Origin: a virus
Lineage: Duplodnaviria > Caudoviricetes
Virus record (IMG/VR): IMGVR_UViG_3300010048_000010
Coordinates: 1-63,610 of that record
Reading direction: 5' to 3' (one strand)
DNA: 63,610 nucleotides
Shown here: piece after piece, positions 50,531 to 55,364 of the stretch
How positions within the stretch are numbered: the stretch's first letter is position 1
Layout of the letters: every line of letters begins with the position of its first letter
Notes under the pieces: model-generated
What the model was told of the DNA's origin: nothing
Databases searched by the model: none
The model's input: the letters and a program-made list of their open reading frames with translations, nothing else
Program-made: the position numbers and the translations under genes

Positions 50531-50541
50531 CGCTTTTCAAG

Positions 50542-50565
50542 CCTATTCTATTCTGCTAGAATAGG
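50542..50565 (+). promoter_or_regulatory. extended -10 promoter inside a palindrome; likely drives the ncRNA array and Ro60
   Basis: TGcTAGAAT (50554-50562) within the inverted repeat CCTATTCTA/TAGAATAGG. Confidence 0.6.
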
Positions 50566-50568
50566 ATT

Positions 50569-50786
50569 TATCGGTGAGGGATTCATAAGTTGCGCGGGGC
50601 GCACACCTCACCGATACTGAACTCGATGCTCCCCCTCGCGGAGGTTCGCCACCGCCAGTGCATCAGCCAAAAGGGAAGGTGGATACCTGCGGCGCTCAAG
50701 TGCATATGGGTCAGTCGTGCTGAGCCGGGCAACCGGAGATAGCAAACAATGCATAGTCACCCCCTCGGGGGTTTATACCGAGCAGA
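50569..50786 (+). ncRNA. structured leader RNA of unknown class
   Basis: 11-bp stem TATCGGTGAGG/CCTCACCGATA, nested pseudoknot-like region 50619-50664, CCGG-GCAA-CCGG GNRA hairpin, ACCCC-CTCG-GGGGT; no ORF. Confidence 0.5.
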
Positions 50787-50790
50787 TTTT

Positions 50791-50922
50791 GCCGTGGTGT
50801 AGTTATCAGATACTTCGCTTGGGGCGACGATGTTTTAGGTTCGAGTCCTAATGCTCCCCCAATCAATGGGGAGTATAGCTCAATGGTAGAGCACGTACTT
50901 TCTGGTAGCGTTTGTTCCCGGC
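50791..50922 (+). ncRNA. Y-RNA-like cassette 1 carrying a complete permuted tRNA (anticodon TGG)
   Basis: Scaffold GCCG-TGGTG...TTCC-CGGC; cargo order anticodon arm, T arm TTAGG-TTCGAGT-CCTAA, closed acceptor stem, D arm GCTC-AATGGTA-GAGC. Confidence 0.85.
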
Positions 50923-50931
50923 TTGATTTCT

Positions 50932-51020
50932 GGCATGGTGAAGTGACCCGATACTTCGGTTAATACTCTCGTAAGAGCGTAGTGGTTCGAATCCACAATC
51001 GGTTCACGATTATTCCTGCC
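50932..51020 (+). ncRNA. Y-RNA-like cassette 2 (reduced cargo with T arm)
   Basis: GGCA-TGGTG...TTCC-TGCC; inner stem GTGACCCGAT/ATCGGTTCAC; GTGG-TTCGAAT-CCAC. Confidence 0.8.
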
Positions 51021-51030
51021 AATAGTTTTT

Positions 51031-51159
51031 GGCGTGGTGTAGTGAACAGTTCCTCCGACTGCTAATCGGGAAGCCCGAGTTCGACTCTCGGCGGGGCCGC
51101 ATCAATGGCCCCGTAGTGTAACGGTAGCACTCCGTGTCCTGTTTGCGATTGTTCCCGCC
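51031..51159 (+). ncRNA. Y-RNA-like cassette 3 carrying a complete permuted tRNA (anticodon GCT)
   Basis: GGCG-TGGTG...TTCC-CGCC; CCGA-CTGCTAA-TCGG, CCGAG-TTCGACT-CTCGG, CGGGGCC/GGCCCCG, GTGT-AACGGTA-GCAC. Confidence 0.85.
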
Positions 51160-51169
51160 TCACCATCAA

Positions 51170-51239
51170 GCCGTGGTGAAGAGTTCGATTACATCGCTAC
51201 CTCCCTGTTGCGCAAACATCGACCTCGTTTGTTCCCGGC
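51170..51239 (+). ncRNA. Y-RNA-like cassette 4 (minimal cargo)
   Basis: GCCG-TGGTG...TTCC-CGGC; inner stem GAGTTCGAT/ATCGACCTC. Confidence 0.75.
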
Positions 51240-51249
51240 TATCGACTAT

Positions 51250-51338
51250 GCGGTGGTGATTTGGACTGATACATCGCGCTGAAACGCTGGCGGTCTGCGA
51301 AGCCGCTGAAGTACCTTCAGTCTGAAGATGTTCCCCGC
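51250..51338 (+). ncRNA. Y-RNA-like cassette 5 (two hairpins with anticodon-like loops)
   Basis: GCGG-TGGTG...TTCC-CCGC; inner stem TTGGACTGA/TCAGTCTGA. Confidence 0.75.
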
Positions 51339-51356
51339 AACCCCATAGGAGGGGTC

Positions 51357-52772
51357 ATGTCGAAAATGAACCAGAAGGCCAAGACCAAGGCGATTCCACA
51401 GTCGCCTTTTTCTTTTTATGGCCAAACTACCGAAGCCTTACCTGTCCAAGCCCGCACCCATGAGGGTGGTCCGGCCATCACGTTCTCACCACAGGATCAA
51501 CTGCGGCGTGCCGTACTGTCCTGCCTACTGTGGGAAAAGAGTTTCTATGAATCGGGCCAATCGATTGCTGACCGCATCGCGCAACTTGTCAAGGAAGTCG
51601 ACCCGGAATATACCAAAGCTCTTGCGCGTGTTGCTCGCTCGCAGTTTAAACTTCGACATGTTCCACTCTACCTCGTTGTGCAACTACTTGCGAAACGAGG
51701 GGTTCGTGATCTCGACGAACTCATCTATGATGTGGTTCAACGAGCCGATGAACCCGCAGAGTTGGTCAGCATGTACTGGGCCAATGGCAAGCGCCCACTT
51801 GCAGCGGCGCTCAAGCGCGGCTTGGCTGCGGCTATCACAAAATTTGACGAGTACCAAGTTGCCAAATGGCAGGGCAATGCCGACTCGAAGATTAAACTTC
51901 GCGACGTCATGTTCATGGTACACGCCAAGCCACTCATGGATTCCCAAGGGGCCATGTGGAAACGGTTTGTCGCTGGCGAAATCAAGCCGCCTGATACGTG
52001 GGAGGTCGCACTTTCGAGTGGCGCGGACAAAAAGGATACATTCTCTCGACTGATTATGGAGAACAAGCTCGGCTACATGGCGCTGCTACGTAATGTGCGG
52101 AACATGCATGAAGCGGGCGTTGATCCGAACTTGATTGCTACGGCGCTGACCAATGGTGCGCGCAAGAGCCGCGCGCTACCCTTCCGGTTTATCGCCGCTG
52201 CGCGAGCCTGCCCGCCGCTTGAACACATGATCGACCAAGCGATGCAACTGGCGCTGGACGGAGTCTCCAAGCTTGAAGGAGTAACTGATCTGTTGGTTGA
52301 CGTCTCTGGTTCTATGGACCAAAAGCTGTCGGCCAAATCGGACCTGCGCCGGGTAGATGCCGCCTGTGGTCTTGCGATCTTGATGAACGGCCTGTGCGAG
52401 AACGTTCGCATCTGGACATTCAGCGATCAGTTGGTTCGGGTTGCGCCGCGTTCCGGCATGGCATTACGCGATGCGATCATGCACAGCCAACACCACAGCG
52501 GTACCTATCTCGGCGCAGCCCTACGCACGCTAGAAGCCAATGTGACTGAGGCACCAATGCGAACTGTGGTCATCACTGACGAACAGGCCGCGGACGCAGT
52601 CGGGGCACCGCGAGGCTTGGGGTACATGATTAATGTAGCCGGTGATAAGAACGGCGTTGGCTACGGCGCATGGACGTGGATGACCGGTTTCTCCGAAGCG
52701 GTGGTCGCTTACATCGCAGCTATTGAACACCGGGACGACGCAATCCTGCTTCCGTCTGAGAATGTAGAATGA
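51357..52772 (+). CDS. rsr: Ro60 / Rsr RNA-binding protein (TROVE + vWA)
   Basis: THEGG, LRR.VLSCLLWE..FYE, RADE, KFDEYQ.AK, TWE..LS, YMALLRN.RN, LPFRF; MIDAS VDVSGSM, VITDEQ. Confidence 0.92.
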   Translation: MSKMNQKAKTKAIPQSPFSFYGQTTEALPVQARTHEGGPAITFSPQDQLRRAVLSCLLWEKSFYESGQSIADRIAQLVKEVDPEYTKALARVARSQFKLRHVPLYLVVQLLAKRGVRDLDELIYDVVQRADEPAELVSMYWANGKRPLAAALKRGLAAAITKFDEYQVAKWQGNADSKIKLRDVMFMVHAKPLMDSQGAMWKRFVAGEIKPPDTWEVALSSGADKKDTFSRLIMENKLGYMALLRNVRNMHEAGVDPNLIATALTNGARKSRALPFRFIAAARACPPLEHMIDQAMQLALDGVSKLEGVTDLLVDVSGSMDQKLSAKSDLRRVDAACGLAILMNGLCENVRIWTFSDQLVRVAPRSGMALRDAIMHSQHHSGTYLGAALRTLEANVTEAPMRTVVITDEQAADAVGAPRGLGYMINVAGDKNGVGYGAWTWMTGFSEAVVAYIAAIEHRDDAILLPSENVE

Positions 52773-52826: not shown

Positions 52827-53543
52827 TTGAAACAAGTCAATAGACAGACTCCAGTCAAGGCAGATCGCCACGATGACGGCAGTCTACTCATCCACAGCAT
52901 CTTCTTGACTCTACAAGGCGAAGGCCCACACGTGGGCCAACCCGCCATCTTTGTACGCCTAGCTGGATGCAATATCCAGTGCCCCGGATGCGATACTGAG
53001 TATACCGGGAATTCTCTCAAGCGTCTTTACTTCAACGAGCTAACGGATCAAGTTCTGCGCTACGCGCATGGTCCGCACAAGCCGATGATTGTTATCACTG
53101 GCGGCGAACCGTTGCGCCAGAACATTATTCCGTTCGTCAACTGGCTCAGCAAACACGGTTTCTGCGTGCAGATAGAAACCAATGGCACACTTGGCATCGA
53201 CAAAACTGGGCTATCCGATCCGGCCCGGTATAATCTCGAAATCGTTTGCAGTCCCAAGACTGGAAAAGTCGTGGAGTCACTGCACGAGTTCATCATCGCC
53301 TACAAATATGTGGTCAACGAAGGAGATATCGATGGTCAAGACGGATTGCCTATGGGGGTGTTGGGCTTACATGTTCGACCTGCTCGCCCGCATGATGGCT
53401 ACCATAAAAAAGTTTATGTTCAACCCGCTGATGAATATGATCCTATTCAGAACCAACGGAATTTAGATGCCGCAGTTCAATCGTGTCTGCTGTTTGGGCA
53501 TACTCTCTGCATGCAAATCCACAAGTACATCAACATGCCATAG
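52827..53543 (+). CDS. queE: 7-carboxy-7-deazaguanine synthase (radical SAM)
   Basis: IF.TLQGEG...G.PAIFVRLAGCNIQCPGCDT, ITGGEPL, IETNGT, CSPK, QIHK. Confidence 0.93.
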   Translation: MKQVNRQTPVKADRHDDGSLLIHSIFLTLQGEGPHVGQPAIFVRLAGCNIQCPGCDTEYTGNSLKRLYFNELTDQVLRYAHGPHKPMIVITGGEPLRQNIIPFVNWLSKHGFCVQIETNGTLGIDKTGLSDPARYNLEIVCSPKTGKVVESLHEFIIAYKYVVNEGDIDGQDGLPMGVLGLHVRPARPHDGYHKKVYVQPADEYDPIQNQRNLDAAVQSCLLFGHTLCMQIHKYINMP

Positions 53544-53551
53544 GAGTTATC

Positions 53552-54220
53552 ATGGGCAACAAGGCGGTAGTAATGCTATCTGGCGGTCAGGATTCAACGA
53601 CCGTACTTGGTAAGGCACTCTCCGATGGGTTCGAGTGCTACGCTATCGGATTCGATTACGGCCAACGCCACAAGATCGAACTGTTGCAAGCACAGAAGAT
53701 CGCAGAAGACCTCGGCGTCTCATACGAACTGGTACGTCTTGAAGCGCTCGGCAAAATGGTGACCACAGGATTGACGGAATCGACTGGCGACCTGAATGAG
53801 CGCCACCCGAGGTACACGGATTTGCCAGCATCGTTCGTACCCAATCGCAACGCGCTATTCCTCACTTTCGCACATGCTTATGCGCAAGAAATTGGGGCGC
53901 GCATGGTGTGGGGTGGCATGTGCCAGACTGACTATAGCGGTTACCCGGATTGCCGACGCGTATTCATCGACGCGATGCAACATGCGTTGAATGTAGGCTA
54001 TCGCACTGATGTGGTCTTCATCACTCCGCTGATGGACTTGACCAAGGCACAGACTTGGAAGATGGCCGAAGATGTTGGCGTTCTCGAAACCGTTATCACA
54101 GAAACGAATACTTGCTACAACGGTATTCGCGATGAGTTGCACGAATGGGGCTATGGCTGCGGCAACTGCCCCGCGTGCAAAATCCGCGCGAAAGGATGGA
54201 ACGAGTACCGGGGAATGTGA
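53552..54220 (+). CDS. queC: 7-cyano-7-deazaguanine (preQ0) synthase
   Basis: LSGGQDS, FDYGQRH, VPNRN, DYSGYPDCR, TCY...CGNCPAC. Confidence 0.95.
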   Translation: MGNKAVVMLSGGQDSTTVLGKALSDGFECYAIGFDYGQRHKIELLQAQKIAEDLGVSYELVRLEALGKMVTTGLTESTGDLNERHPRYTDLPASFVPNRNALFLTFAHAYAQEIGARMVWGGMCQTDYSGYPDCRRVFIDAMQHALNVGYRTDVVFITPLMDLTKAQTWKMAEDVGVLETVITETNTCYNGIRDELHEWGYGCGNCPACKIRAKGWNEYRGM

Positions 54221-54663
54221 TGTGGCAGATTAAAAAACATTACGGCCATGAACTAGGACTTAGCGCGTGCTTTCGCCAGTGGCGCGCTGACTCCCATTGC
54301 CGACACCTACATGGCTATGCACTGGCGTTCACCTTCACTTTCGAATGCGAGACGCTGAACGATAAACAATGGGTAGTAGACTTCGGCGGCTTGGCTGGAC
54401 TGAAGCAACGGCTAGCGCATGCATTTGACCACAGGCTGTGCGTTGCAGAAGATGACCCTTGTCTAATCCACTTCTTGAACCTATCCGGCGAGGATTGTGC
54501 CAACCCTATTGTGCTTCCACATGTGGGCTGCGAACGCTTCGCGGAGTACGCTTTCGGACTGGCTCAGGAAGAACTGGAGAAGTTGAGCGTCAATCCGCGC
54601 GTGCGCCTTATCTCTTGCGAATGTGCCGAGCATGGCGCGAACTCAGCGGTGTATATACCATGA
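54220..54663 (+). CDS. queD: 6-carboxytetrahydropterin synthase
   Basis: FRQWRADSHC..LHGY, WVVDFG, FDH, EHGANSA. Confidence 0.9.
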   Translation: MWQIKKHYGHELGLSACFRQWRADSHCRHLHGYALAFTFTFECETLNDKQWVVDFGGLAGLKQRLAHAFDHRLCVAEDDPCLIHFLNLSGEDCANPIVLPHVGCERFAEYAFGLAQEELEKLSVNPRVRLISCECAEHGANSAVYIP

Positions 54664-55364
54664 ACGAAGACTGGTTCGAAACTCCTCATCTGACAGCGGG
54701 TGACCAAAATGAAAAGACGCTACAGAACTCGGGAAAGCACCATTGTGCTAAGTGCGGTACCGGATACGCTGGACCGGAGTGCGAGCCGCCACCACAGAAT
54801 TCAATCGACCGAGAGAGTATTATCAGGGATTTGTTGCGCTTCATTGTTGGCGAGAACCCAGACCGGCCAGGTCTACAGGAGACGCCAAGTCGTGTGGTCA
54901 AGGCATGGGAGCATTGGACGGGTGGATATAAGGTCGACACAAAGGCGCTACTCAAATCGTTTGAGGACGGAGCCGACAAGTACGATGAAATGGTGGTTCG
55001 TAAAGGCATTCCTATTTACTCTGTCTGTGAGCATCATTTGTGTCCTATCGTGGGAACTTGTACAATTGCTTATATCCCTGTCGGTCACATTGTGGGACTA
55101 TCTAAACTCGATCGACTGGCTGACGCTTACGCCAGACGGCTTCAAGTACAAGAAAGGCTAACGAACCAGATTGCAGACGACTTGTTTCATAACGTGCAGC
55201 CGCTAGGCGTTGGTGTATATATCAACGCGCGGCACTTCTGTATTGAAACTCGAGGTGTCTGTCATCCGCAATCTGATACGATAACATGCGCGCTACGCGG
55301 TGTAATGCGCAGCGATCCGGCGGCACGGAGCGAATTTTTAGCTCTAGTAAACAATGGATCGTAA
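54660..55364 (+). CDS. folE: GTP cyclohydrolase I
   Basis: RPGL.ETP.RV, CEHH, GLSKL.R, RRLQVQERLT.QIA, H.C...RGV. Confidence 0.95.
   Translation: MNEDWFETPHLTAGDQNEKTLQNSGKHHCAKCGTGYAGPECEPPPQNSIDRESIIRDLLRFIVGENPDRPGLQETPSRVVKAWEHWTGGYKVDTKALLKSFEDGADKYDEMVVRKGIPIYSVCEHHLCPIVGTCTIAYIPVGHIVGLSKLDRLADAYARRLQVQERLTNQIADDLFHNVQPLGVGVYINARHFCIETRGVCHPQSDTITCALRGVMRSDPAARSEFLALVNNGS

What the first reader, a model, noticed from the sequence alone, without database searches (positions are those of the whole stretch)
51056..51133. Cassette 3 holds a complete circularly permuted tRNA with a GCT anticodon on a non-Ser body
Seen: genomic order is the 3' half (CGA-CTGCTAA-TCGGG, variable loop AAGC, T arm CCGAG-TTCGACT-CTCGG, acceptor CGGGGCC-G), linker CATCAAT, then the 5' half (GGCCCCG-TA-GTGT-AACGGTA-GCAC-T-CC). 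Joining 51133 to 51056 gives a perfect cloverleaf with a 5-bp anticodon stem CC|CGA/TCGGG and loop CU-GCU-AA. Known: described YrlA RNAs have the permuted T/acceptor/D arrangement, but as I recall the Ro-binding stem takes the place of the anticodon arm. Canonical tRNA-Ser needs a long variable arm, whereas this one has 4 nt. Inference: either a whole-tRNA mimic tethered to Ro60, or a permuted pre-tRNA matured by excision, ligation and opening of the acceptor loop, as for permuted algal/archaeal tRNAs. That route could give a tRNA whose charging does not match its anticodon.
Basis: partly seen in the sequence, partly recalled or inferred. Interest (0 to 1): 0.9.

Follow-up and report, generated by a model that had tools for sequence, protein, structure and literature searches.

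The report
Phage Y RNA mimicking a whole tRNA
This stretch lies inside a phage Y RNA that sits beside the phage's Ro60 gene and folds like a complete tRNA, anticodon arm included, a feature shared by many related Y RNAs; it is most likely a tethered tRNA look-alike and not a decoding tRNA.

Summary
Bases 51056-51133 read as a circularly permuted cloverleaf with a 5-bp anticodon stem and the loop CUGCUAA.

It is the core of a 129-nt YrlA-type Y RNA (51031-51159). This is the third of five tandem Y-RNA cassettes upstream of a phage Ro60 gene.

Both outer pairs are Watson-Crick in 61 of 63 related cassettes and in 41 of 43 of a second set. The all-local alternative reaches 1 of 63 and 0 of 43.

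The feature is not special to cassette 3. More than half of the parsed Ro60-linked cassettes have it, with U33, a purine at 37 and about 30 different "anticodons".

Published work calls this hairpin a variable-arm "V" stem-loop and says Salmonella YrlA lacks an anticodon loop.

The maturation model (excision and ligation into a real tRNA) is not supported. RNase P opening of the acceptor loop remains possible, with an M. smegmatis precedent.

ARAGORN's acceptance of the re-joined sequence is weak evidence, because 279 of 415 shuffled controls also pass.

The parts
50534..50562 (+). Promoter-like site TTTTCA-17-TAGAAT upstream of the cassette array.
   Evidence: There were 2 sites in the region against 1.8 expected from shuffles, so the evidence is weak. 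A similar TTGCAA...TAGAAT lies upstream of the array in L082 (read by eye).
50791..50922 (+). Cassette 1: YrlA-like Y RNA with a T arm, a closed acceptor hairpin and a D arm. Its split anticodon-position arm has core UCG/CGA, loop CUUGGGG, and 27-28 CG pairing with 42-43 CG.
   Evidence: Rfam YrlA 33.7 bits against a gathering score of 69. R1 68 bits. Parse.
50932..51020 (+). Cassette 2: shorter Y-RNA-like module. It has the Ro-type stem, a T-arm-like hairpin and one further hairpin, but no acceptor or D arm.
   Evidence: R1 33.2 bits. Inner hairpins read by eye.
51031..51159 (+). Cassette 3: the complete Y RNA that contains the finding.
   Evidence: Rfam YrlA 27.2 bits at 51043-51158. Model R1 was built from it. 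Orthologues are L082:2159-2295 and L083:2098-2225.
51031..51049 (+). 5' strand of the terminal stem, carrying the Ro-type motif GGUGUAG (51036-51042), plus the 5' strand of the middle helix (51042-51049).
   Evidence: Pairs with 51139-51159. In alignment A7 the stem and middle helix show compensatory changes in most pairs. The motif is a variant of the GNCGAAN0-1G motif of Chen 2014.
51056..51070 (+). Anticodon-arm mimic: positions 29-31 (CGA), the 7-nt loop CUGCUAA (51059-51065), positions 39-41 (UCG) and positions 42-43 (GG, 51069-51070).
   Evidence: Identical in all three orthologues except one stem position. Family statistics.
51071..51091 (+). 4-nt variable loop AAGC (51071-51074) and the T arm CCGAG-UUCGACU-CUCGG (51075-51091).
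51092..51113 (+). Acceptor-like hairpin: a 7-bp stem closed by the 8-nt loop G+CAUCAAU. The predicted RNase P site lies between 51106 and 51107 (inference).
   Evidence: Precedent for cleavage of a 7-bp YrlA acceptor stem in Chen 2014.
51114..51133 (+). U8 A9, the D arm GUGU-AACGGUA-GCAC (51116-51130), N26 = U (51131), and positions 27-28 = CC (51132-51133), which close the anticodon stem onto G51070 and G51069.
   Evidence: Covariation of 27-28 with 42-43.
51139..51159 (+). 3' strand of the middle helix (51139-51146) and of the terminal Ro-type stem (51154-51159, within UGUUCCCGCC).
51170..51239 (+). Cassette 4: short YrlB-like module without a tRNA-like domain.
   Evidence: R1 27.6 bits.
51250..51338 (+). 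Cassette 5: short Y-RNA-like module without a tRNA-like domain.
   Evidence: R1 23.3 bits.
51357..52772 (+). Ro60 (Rsr) orthologue, 471 aa.
   Evidence: Pfam TROVE 2.8e-13 and VWA_2 5.5e-06. 7930 relatives at E<=1e-20 among the 8000 candidates scored.

Best explanation
Bases 51056-51133 are the tRNA-like module of a 129-nt YrlA-class Y RNA (51031-51159). It is the third of five tandem Y-RNA cassettes transcribed towards a phage Ro60 gene.

The 5' and 3' ends pair into the Ro60-binding stem. The interior folds as a circularly permuted cloverleaf with a T arm, a closed acceptor hairpin and a D arm. Unlike the published Salmonella YrlA, it also has a full anticodon arm.

That arm is composite. 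Three pairs and the 7-nt loop come from a local hairpin. The two outer pairs are made by the strand returning from the D arm. The Ro-binding stem therefore branches off between positions 28 and 29.

Shown here: the sequence, the Ro60 adjacency, and covariation for every helix including the split stem.

Inferred: Ro60 binds the terminal stem. The module acts as a non-decoding whole-tRNA mimic that brings a tRNA-recognising partner to Ro60, or competes for it. The GCU triplet is a loop sequence and not a decoding identity.
For: Context:
- The Ro60 gene lies directly downstream.
- There are five cassettes with a shared terminal stem.
- Rfam YrlA gives sub-threshold hits on cassettes 1 and 3.

Orthologues in L082 and L083 (Ro60 82% and 64% identical):
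- They keep the hairpin and the CUGCUAA loop while the T stem and acceptor diverge.
- Stem position 42 changes G/A/G together with position 28, C/U/C.

Set 1 (216 distinct model hits from the window and 160 viral or metagenome loci; 112 parsed):
- 63 have a 3-bp core and a 7-nt loop at the tRNA distance. Shuffles give a mean of 15.2 and a maximum of 24.
- In 61 of these 63, both 27:43 and 28:42 are Watson-Crick. The types are CC/GG 25, CU/AG 20, CG/CG 9, GC/GC 3, CA/UG 3 and UC/GA 1.
- Register shifts give 0-6 of 63.
- Re-dealing partners among sequences gives a mean of 27 and a maximum of 37 in 2000 trials.

Set 2 (129 further distinct hits from 80 genome loci and one phage; 75 parsed; 43 with the hairpin): 41 of 43.

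MAFFT alignment A7, which was not fitted to the structure: the split helix is 99.1% paired. Pair 39:141 reads GC 26, AU 21, CG 8, UA 3. Controls slid by 1-3 columns give 15-48% paired.

Loop signature:
- U33 in 61/63 and 42/43.
- Purine at 37 in 61/63 and 41/43.
- A38 in 55/63 and 34/43.
Against: - Single-sequence folding does not give the cloverleaf. The MFE is another fold with z = -1.54.
- Nearest-neighbour energies favour an all-local 5-bp hairpin (-45.2 kcal/mol) over the split stem (-40.3) for this cassette. In cassette 3 the local version (U51054.G51070, C51055-G51069) cannot be excluded.
- RNAalifold on A7 predicts no anticodon arm at all.
- On the raw model alignment A4, which mixes all architectures, the split pairs are only 65% paired against 81% for the local ones. 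The local ones, however, show almost no double changes: 3 cells against 29.
- Set 2 adds little covariation, since 38 of 43 are CC/GG.
- The sequences are related, so counts are not independent events.
- There are no expression, binding or probing data.
- Cassette 3 scores 27.2 bits against the Rfam YrlA gathering score of 69.
Confidence: 0.8

Rival explanations
1. Opened two-piece form. RNase P cuts between 51106 and 51107, the 5' piece is trimmed and receives CCA, and the two pieces stay paired on Ro60 as a nicked tRNA-like RNA with a free acceptor end that might be charged. This can coexist with the best explanation.
For: Cassette 3 has a 7-bp acceptor stem, G73, U at -1 and a single-stranded linker. 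Chen 2014 report that M. smegmatis YrlA, the one with a 7-bp stem, is cut by RNase P in vivo and in vitro and gains CA, and that both halves are recovered with Rsr (passages). Cassette 1 and its L082 orthologue share a ...UCAAU linker before the 5' acceptor strand.
Against: The L083 orthologue closes the same stem with a GCAA tetraloop and has no discriminator or linker. The L082 orthologue has an irregular 33-nt hairpin. A 4-nt cap closes 32 of the 63 class-I cassettes. No aminoacylation identity elements for Ser are present, since the variable loop is short. No RNA data are available.
Confidence: 0.2
2. Permuted pre-tRNA. The flanking stem is excised, 51133 is ligated to 51056, the acceptor loop is opened, and a real tRNA(GCU) on a non-Ser body enters translation.
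For: The re-joined sequence is accepted by ARAGORN. The phage has no other tRNA.
Against: ARAGORN also accepts 279 of 415 constructs with a shuffled arm. The flanks are the Ro-type stem shared with cassettes that have no tRNA part. Acceptor closure is not conserved. The record holds no RtcB, tRNA_int_endo or RNA_ligase domain. About 30 different triplets sit on near-identical bodies, including Leu, Ser and Tyr triplets on short-variable-loop bodies. Bacterial splicing endonuclease is not known (recalled).
Confidence: 0.02
3. The hairpin is a variable-arm mimic, the 'V' stem-loop of Chen 2014, and the middle helix is the anticodon-stem equivalent.
For: This is the published reading for many YrlA RNAs (section 6 read). 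RNAalifold predicts no separate anticodon arm.
Against: The topology is wrong for a variable arm. The two nucleotides that covary with 27-28 lie 3' of the hairpin, so the hairpin sits inside the anticodon stem and not after it. The loop is 7 nt with U33 and R37. A normal variable loop of 4-5 nt (AGGUC in 30 of 63) follows it.
Confidence: 0.05
4. A conventional tRNA gene read in genomic order (51031-51099), as GenBank annotates the equivalent place in some phages.
For: Rfam tRNA scores 27.2 bits on 51031-51099. Equivalent stretches are annotated as tRNA-Thr, tRNA-Gln and tRNA-Ser in 3 of the 4 phage records looked at.
Against: The score is below the gathering score of 29. Only 3 acceptor pairs form. 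The supposed 5' part is the Ro-type motif common to all five cassettes. ARAGORN finds nothing in the native window. A true D arm and the covarying 27-28 lie downstream.
Confidence: 0.02

Closest known systems
YrlA, the bacterial and phage Y RNA-like A (Rfam RF02553; Chen et al. 2014, PMC4201824; Wang et al. 2018, bioRxiv 312249)
   Same: It is encoded next to Ro60/Rsr. The 5' and 3' ends form the Ro-type stem with a GNCGAA-like motif. The T arm, closed acceptor stem-loop and D arm come in the same permuted order. The conserved YUAY (here UUCC, and UUAC in most relatives) is present. Several Y RNAs occur per locus.
   Different: Salmonella YrlA 'lacks the anticodon loop', and its anticodon stem runs straight into the Ro module. 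Here, and in 63 of 112 plus 43 of 75 parsed relatives, a 7-nt loop with the anticodon-loop signature sits on a split 5-bp stem. The paper labels a hairpin at this place 'V' and equates it with the variable arm. Cassette 3 is below the Rfam gathering score.
M. smegmatis YrlA (Chen et al. 2014)
   Same: It has a 7-bp acceptor stem. It is cleaved by RNase P and receives CCA in vivo, and both halves are recovered with Rsr. This is the precedent for opening the acceptor loop of cassette 3. A primer printed in that paper for its 5' half contains a CUUCUAA stretch followed by UGGUC. This suggests the same hairpin, but that is my inference; the full sequence was not seen.
   Different: No processing data exist for the phage RNA.
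D. radiodurans Yrn1
   Same: It is a Y RNA with tRNA-like features and a potential 'anticodon arm' with a 5-bp stem.
   Different: Its loop is 6 nt. Its arm lies between the T and D elements, which is a different permutation. Chen et al. consider it of independent origin.
Circularly permuted tRNA genes of the red alga Cyanidioschyzon merolae (recalled, not read here)
   Same: The 3' half is encoded upstream of the 5' half, and the acceptor ends are joined by a short linker.
   Different: Those are matured through a bulge-helix-bulge cut, a circular intermediate and RNase P/Z, and they become decoding tRNAs. Here the flanks are a conserved Ro-binding stem and no such enzymes are encoded. The breakpoint, inside the anticodon stem at 28|29, is conserved in a family of non-tRNA RNAs.
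Other tRNA mimics: the tmRNA tRNA-like domain and the TYMV TLS (mentioned passages)
   Same: An L-shaped mimic used outside decoding.
   Different: Those have free CCA ends and are charged. This RNA has a closed acceptor end in its gene form.

Membership tests
YrlA / bacterial Y RNA | Encoded next to a Ro60 (TROVE) gene. | tested here: met
   The Ro60 ORF at 51357-52772 lies 198 nt downstream on the same strand.
YrlA / bacterial Y RNA | The 5' and 3' ends pair into a stem carrying the Ro-type motif (GNCGAAN0-1G in Chen 2014). | tested here: inconclusive
   The stem is present and covaries. The motif here is GGUGUAG, which departs from the strict published pattern at two letters. Relatives show GGCGAAG, GGCGUAG and GGUGAAG.
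YrlA / bacterial Y RNA | A T arm, a closed acceptor-like stem-loop and a D arm, in that order. | tested here: met
YrlA / bacterial Y RNA | Score at or above the Rfam RF02553 gathering score. | tested here: not met
   27.2 bits for cassette 3 and 33.7 bits for cassette 1, against 69. No hits at gathering threshold. The Rfam model has no hairpin at this place.
YrlA / bacterial Y RNA | Bound by Ro60/Rsr in vivo. | not testable with these tools
   No RNA or binding data were available.
Functional tRNA | A contiguous cloverleaf detected by tRNA finders in genomic order. | tested here: not met
   ARAGORN finds 0 in the window. The Rfam tRNA hit read in genomic order scores 27.2, below 29.
Functional tRNA | A free acceptor end, either with encoded CCA or a processable trailer. 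| tested here: not met
   The acceptor strands are joined by an 8-nt loop. The orthologues are closed by a tetraloop or a long hairpin.
Functional tRNA | A body matching the anticodon. Bacterial tRNA-Ser has a long variable arm (recalled rule). | tested here: not met
   The variable loop is 4 nt.
Permuted tRNA genes (algal or archaeal type) | Flanks form a bulge-helix-bulge substrate for a splicing endonuclease, and a ligase is available. | tested here: not met
   The flanks form the conserved Y-RNA stem. The 63.6-kb record has no tRNA_int_endo, RtcB or RNA_ligase domain. The bulge-helix-bulge motif itself was not searched for formally, and host enzymes are unknown.
Permuted tRNA genes (algal or archaeal type) | A circular intermediate or a junction-joined mature tRNA. 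| not testable with these tools
   No RNA data were available.

The most novel reading that the evidence does not exclude
The anticodon arms of these Ro60-tethered mimics may be read by anticodon-loop-directed proteins.

Support:
- They keep U33 and R37.
- They keep the coupling of positions 36 and 37 seen in real tRNAs: U36-A37 in 32 of 32 and 17 of 18, and G36-G37 in 13 of 16 and 14 of 17.
- All 7 loci that hold two such cassettes carry two different triplets.

Proposed reading: phage and bacterial Ro60 particles would carry a panel of anticodon-specific decoys or sensors for tRNA-targeting nucleases or modification enzymes. This would protect real tRNAs, or recruit Ro60 and its exonuclease partner to damaged ones. 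Hughes et al. 2020 already suggested that YrlA might competitively inhibit an anticodon nuclease (passage). An actual anticodon loop would make that idea directly testable.
Probability: 0.15. Interest if true: 0.85.

Novelty: new variant of a known kind. Interest (0 to 1): 0.6.

Why it matters
YrlA is the textbook example of a tRNA mimic of unknown purpose. The solved Salmonella structure and the Rfam model lack an anticodon loop, and the hairpin seen in other species was filed as a variable arm.

In this phage and in most of the Ro60-linked cassettes I could parse, that hairpin is part of a covarying 5-bp anticodon stem. It carries a 7-nt loop with the universal anticodon-loop signature.

This changes what partners should be looked for: enzymes that read anticodon loops, and not only the tRNA elbow. 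It also gives a concrete mutate-and-rescue test.

It explains why annotation pipelines place spurious tRNA-Thr, tRNA-Gln and tRNA-Ser genes next to Ro60 genes in phage genomes.

The more dramatic idea, a mischarging permuted tRNA, is not supported.

Tried and rejected
Searches and folds that led nowhere or did not help:
- Rfam at gathering threshold gave nothing in the window.
- A single-protein locus search in viral contigs gave no relative.
- An exact 30-mer search in viral contigs gave 0 hits.
- A blastn 'distant' search of the array against GenBank phages matched only a 58-nt T-arm/D-arm stretch to adjacent phage tRNA genes. I treat this as generic tRNA similarity.
- RNAfold on cassette 3 alone gave an MFE fold that is not a cloverleaf, with z = -1.54.
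- RNAalifold on 58 cassettes recovered the terminal stem, middle helix, T arm, acceptor and D arm, but no anticodon arm.

ARAGORN as a test of the re-joined sequence was rejected as a discriminating test. It called 73 of 83 eligible re-joined cassettes, but also 279 of 415 constructs with a shuffled arm.

Body-versus-anticodon concordance was looked at by eye only. One Xanthomonas-phage cassette has a Glu-like D arm with a CUC triplet, but others with that D arm carry Pro, Gln or Asn triplets. There is no consistent match.

Sequencing runs: no RNA holder listed.

Infernal scoring of the re-joined sequence against the tRNA model could not be done, because the tools score only the window and loci.

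Rows dropped or left aside:
- My parser missed cassettes with irregular arms. The L082 orthologue of cassette 3 was mis-parsed and is absent from the 63.
- 104 of the 216 set-1 hits were not parsed: 67 shorter than 100 nt and 37 longer with other architectures.
- The 49 parsed cassettes without the strict hairpin were classified by eye only. Some are one-mismatch versions; others are Salmonella-like with a continuous stem.
- Alignment A7 holds 57 of the 63 plus the L082 orthologue. I left out L013:1538, L011:2296, L096:2304, L155:1769, L135:1640 and L105:2279 without a formal criterion (atypical or near-duplicate).

Literature limits:
- Supplements of Chen 2014 (Fig. S1, Tables S1-S2) were closed and may show this hairpin in more detail.
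- The 2020 Annual Review by Sim et al. is not held.
- My statement that an anticodon-arm reading is not in print rests on three searches: YrlA + anticodon, 8 papers; YrlA, 37 papers.
Full report
OBSERVATION

A script joined 51107-51133 to 51056-51099, and ARAGORN called a 71-nt tRNA(gct). That model has a 7-bp acceptor stem, a 4-bp D stem, a 5-bp T stem and five Watson-Crick anticodon-stem pairs around the loop CUGCUAA. The native window holds no tRNA by ARAGORN.

I tested how much that call is worth. Re-joined versions of 73 of 83 eligible related cassettes were called. So were 279 of 415 constructs in which the 17-nt anticodon arm had been shuffled. With such strong T, D and acceptor arms ARAGORN accepts almost anything, so its verdict is weak evidence. 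The case rests on comparative data.

CONTEXT

The window is a whole virus record of 63,610 bases. Positions 50531-51356 hold no ORF of 80 aa or more on either strand. This region is followed by a 471-aa TROVE + vWA protein, a Ro60 orthologue (7930 relatives at E<=1e-20 among the 8000 candidates scored). After that come radical-SAM (QueE-like), QueC and GTP cyclohydrolase I genes.

A covariance model built from cassette 3 finds five tandem modules with the same terminal stem:
- 50791-50922 (68 bits)
- 50932-51020 (33.2 bits)
- 51031-51159 (the model's own source)
- 51170-51239 (27.6 bits)
- 51250-51338 (23.3 bits)

Rfam places YrlA on cassettes 1 and 3, but far below its gathering score: 33.7 and 27.2 bits against 69. 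It reports nothing at gathering threshold. The finding is therefore the inner part of a Y RNA of the YrlA kind, one of five next to a phage Ro60 gene.

CLOSE RELATIVES

Two metagenome contigs encode Ro60 proteins 82% and 64% identical to this one (L082 and L083). Both have an orthologue of cassette 3.

In a three-way alignment the terminal-stem 5' strand and the hairpin with its CUGCUAA loop are invariant except for one stem position. The T stem and the acceptor differ. Position 42 reads G/A/G and position 28 reads C/U/C in window/L082/L083, so the outer pair is kept through a double change.

The local alternative (51055 with 51069) reads C-G, U-A, U.G. Three sequences therefore cannot separate the two readings.

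The acceptor closure is not conserved. It is an 8-nt loop here, a GCAA tetraloop directly on a 7-bp stem in L083, and an irregular 33-nt hairpin in L082.

THE FAMILY

I built model R1 with only the three inner hairpin pairs in its structure, leaving both candidate outer pairings unpaired. I searched the window plus 160 loci around Ro60 relatives from viral and metagenome contigs. This gave 229 hits and 216 distinct sequences.

A script then located the T arm, the acceptor hairpin and the D arm by their own pairing, without using the region in question.
- 112 cassettes were parsed.
- 67 were unparsed and shorter than 100 nt.
- 37 were unparsed and longer, with other layouts.

Of the 112, 63 have a 3-bp core with a 7-nt loop placed so that two more nucleotides and a 4-5-nt variable loop precede the T stem. 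Shuffling the upstream 26 nt gives a mean of 15.2 and a maximum of 24 in 200 trials.

These 63 were selected only on the inner hairpin. Results for them:
- The two nucleotides after N26 (positions 27-28) are Watson-Crick to the two nucleotides after the hairpin (43, 42) in 61 of 63.
- Six pair-type combinations occur: CC/GG 25, CU/AG 20, CG/CG 9, GC/GC 3, CA/UG 3, UC/GA 1.
- Moving the 27-28 register by -2, -1, +1 or +2 gives 6, 0, 0 and 0 of 63.
- Re-dealing partners among sequences gives a mean of 27 and a maximum of 37.
- The local alternative, the two nucleotides 5' of the hairpin, is Watson-Crick in 1 of 63. It forms any standard pair in 41 of 63, only because those nucleotides are the nearly invariant UU of the UUACUU motif, which wobble-pairs with G or pairs with A.

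Replicate set. From 80 genome contigs (mostly Acidobacteriota MAGs) and one Xanthomonas phage there were 129 further distinct hits. Of these, 75 were parsed and 43 have the hairpin. The split pairs are Watson-Crick in 41 of 43 and the local pairs in 0 of 43. Covariation is slight there, with CC/GG in 38 (shuffle control 10.6, maximum 18).

MAFFT alignment A7, not fitted to any structure, holds 57 of the 63 plus the L082 orthologue.
- The split helix is 99.1% paired.
- Pair 39:141 reads GC 26, AU 21, CG 8, UA 3.
- The five-pair arm is 94.3% paired, against 73.1% in shuffles (0 of 500 reach it) and 15-48% when slid by 1-3 columns.
- The local outer pairs show only U.G and U-A, with no double change.

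RESULTS THAT CUT THE OTHER WAY

- On the raw model alignment A4, which mixes every architecture, the split pairs are 65% paired and the local ones 81%. Double-change cells are 29 for the split pairs (against 14.3 in shuffles, 0 of 500 reaching it) and only 3 for the local pairs.
- RNAalifold on A7 predicts all other helices but no anticodon arm.
- For cassette 3 itself, nearest-neighbour energies favour the local 5-bp hairpin (-45.2 kcal/mol) over the split stem (-40.3). The unconstrained MFE (-48.0) is a different fold.
- The sequences are related, so the counts are not independent events.

I conclude that the split stem is the conserved structure of the family. In cassette 3 the local hairpin remains a possible competitor. 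Either way an anticodon-arm mimic is present.

THE LOOP LOOKS LIKE AN ANTICODON LOOP

Figures are for set 1 / set 2:
- U33: 61/63 and 42/43.
- Purine at 37: 61/63 and 41/43.
- A38: 55/63 and 34/43.
- C32: 44/63 and 39/43.
- Positions 34-36 vary, with 30 different triplets in set 1 (GCU commonest at 8) and 18 in set 2.
- U36 goes with A37 in 32/32 and 17/18.
- G36 goes with G37 in 13/16 and 14/17.

These couplings are the ones seen in real bacterial tRNAs, where U36 goes with t6A37 and G36 with m1G37 (recalled rules).

The bodies are nearly constant, with GCUCAGUGGUAGAGC-type D arms. Leu, Ser and Tyr triplets all sit on short-variable-loop bodies. All 7 loci with two such cassettes carry two different triplets. 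The window, L083 and L025 each pair an NGG with GCU.

LITERATURE

Chen et al. 2014 (section 6 and other passages read; figures and supplements not seen):
- They describe T, D and acceptor-like stem-loops.
- They say the conserved YUAY begins the V loop.
- 'Anticodon' is used only for D. radiodurans Yrn1.

Wang et al. [quoted passage not shown] The nucleotides that covary with 27-28 lie 3' of the hairpin, and a normal 4-5-nt variable loop (AGGUC in 30 of 63) follows.

I found no paper in the held library giving the anticodon-arm reading. The closed supplements and the unheld 2020 Annual Review could contain it.

The tethered whole-tRNA mimic fits.

The excision-ligation-maturation model does not:
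- The flanks are the Ro-type stem shared with cassettes that have no tRNA part.
- Acceptor closure is not conserved among the orthologues.
- Only 29 of 63 class-I cassettes have 7 or more consecutive acceptor pairs, and 32 of 63 end in a 4-nt cap.
- The phage record encodes no RtcB, splicing endonuclease or RNA_ligase domain (with positive controls ringing).

One step does have a precedent. M. smegmatis YrlA, with a 7-bp acceptor stem, is cut by RNase P and gains CCA in vivo, and both halves are recovered with Rsr. Cassette 3 has 7 bp, G73, U-1 and a single-stranded linker. A nicked two-piece form is therefore possible, which I put at about 0.2. There is no evidence that it would be charged.

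MECHANISM I COMMIT TO

Ro60 binds the terminal stem. This is inferred from the motif and from Chen 2014.

The interior folds as an L-shaped tRNA look-alike. Its anticodon arm is completed by coaxial stacking of the 2-bp closing helix on the 3-bp hairpin, with the Ro-binding stem leaving sideways at 28|29.

The module recruits, or competes for, a protein that recognises whole tRNAs including the anticodon loop. It does not decode.

Hughes et al. 2020 proposed that YrlA may competitively inhibit an anticodon nuclease (passage). A real anticodon loop makes that the most attractive specific version, but nothing here tests it.

NOVELTY

This is a new variant, or re-reading, of a known kind. I set interest at 0.6. 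It is a real, family-wide structural feature that contradicts the current description of YrlA.

Noticed in passing
window 50608-50792: A hairpin-rich element of about 170 nt lies between the promoter-like site and cassette 1. It is conserved in L082 (1973-2160), where it sits between cassettes 1 and 3. RNAalifold gives 32 pairs, 4 of them with compensatory change. There was no Rfam match at E<=10. Its 20-mer occurs in only 2 of the 245 fetched loci. Its function is unexplained.
   Followed up: partly
L242:1792-1859; L244:631-698; L245:1269-1343: GenBank annotates tRNA-Thr (Xanthomonas phage 10KY502B), tRNA-Gln (Caulobacter phage CcrColossus) and tRNA-Ser (Brevundimonas phage Kikimora) just upstream of the Ro60 gene. 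Each overlaps the 5' half of a YrlA-like cassette found by model R1. The Kikimora one has the same CUGCUAA loop as cassette 3. These look like annotation artefacts. The fourth record checked (phage Olaya) has none annotated.
   Followed up: partly
L136:2300-2424, L150:2285-2407, L151:1092-1227, L124:538-668 and others listed: A second permutation class. The Ro-type stem enters in the D loop: the D-stem 3' strand comes first and the D-stem 5' strand last. The anticodon position is then a fully local 5-bp stem capped by a 4-5-nt loop, with no anticodon-like loop. Read by eye only.
   Followed up: no
L119:768-890, L153:2229-2354, L242:1334-1462: Salmonella-like cassettes without any loop at the anticodon position. 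A continuous stem runs into the Ro module. They occur in the same loci as the loop-bearing class.
   Followed up: no
window 52827-55364: Radical-SAM (QueE-like), QueC and GTP cyclohydrolase I genes lie directly downstream of Ro60. This is the usual set for 7-deazaguanine synthesis. Whether it serves DNA or RNA modification here is open.
   Followed up: no
window 50836-50893: The T arm, acceptor and D arm of cassette 1 match, at 86% over 58 nt, the junction between adjacent tRNA-Tyr and tRNA-Ile genes of Cronobacter phage GAP31 and relatives. This is compatible with an origin of YrlA from tandem tRNA genes, or with generic tRNA similarity.
   Followed up: no
window 50932-51020: Cassette 2 keeps the Ro-type stem and a T-arm-like hairpin (GUGG-UUCGAAU-CCAC), plus a 4-bp hairpin with a CGUA loop. 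It has no acceptor or D arm, so it is an intermediate form between YrlA-like and YrlB-like modules.
   Followed up: no
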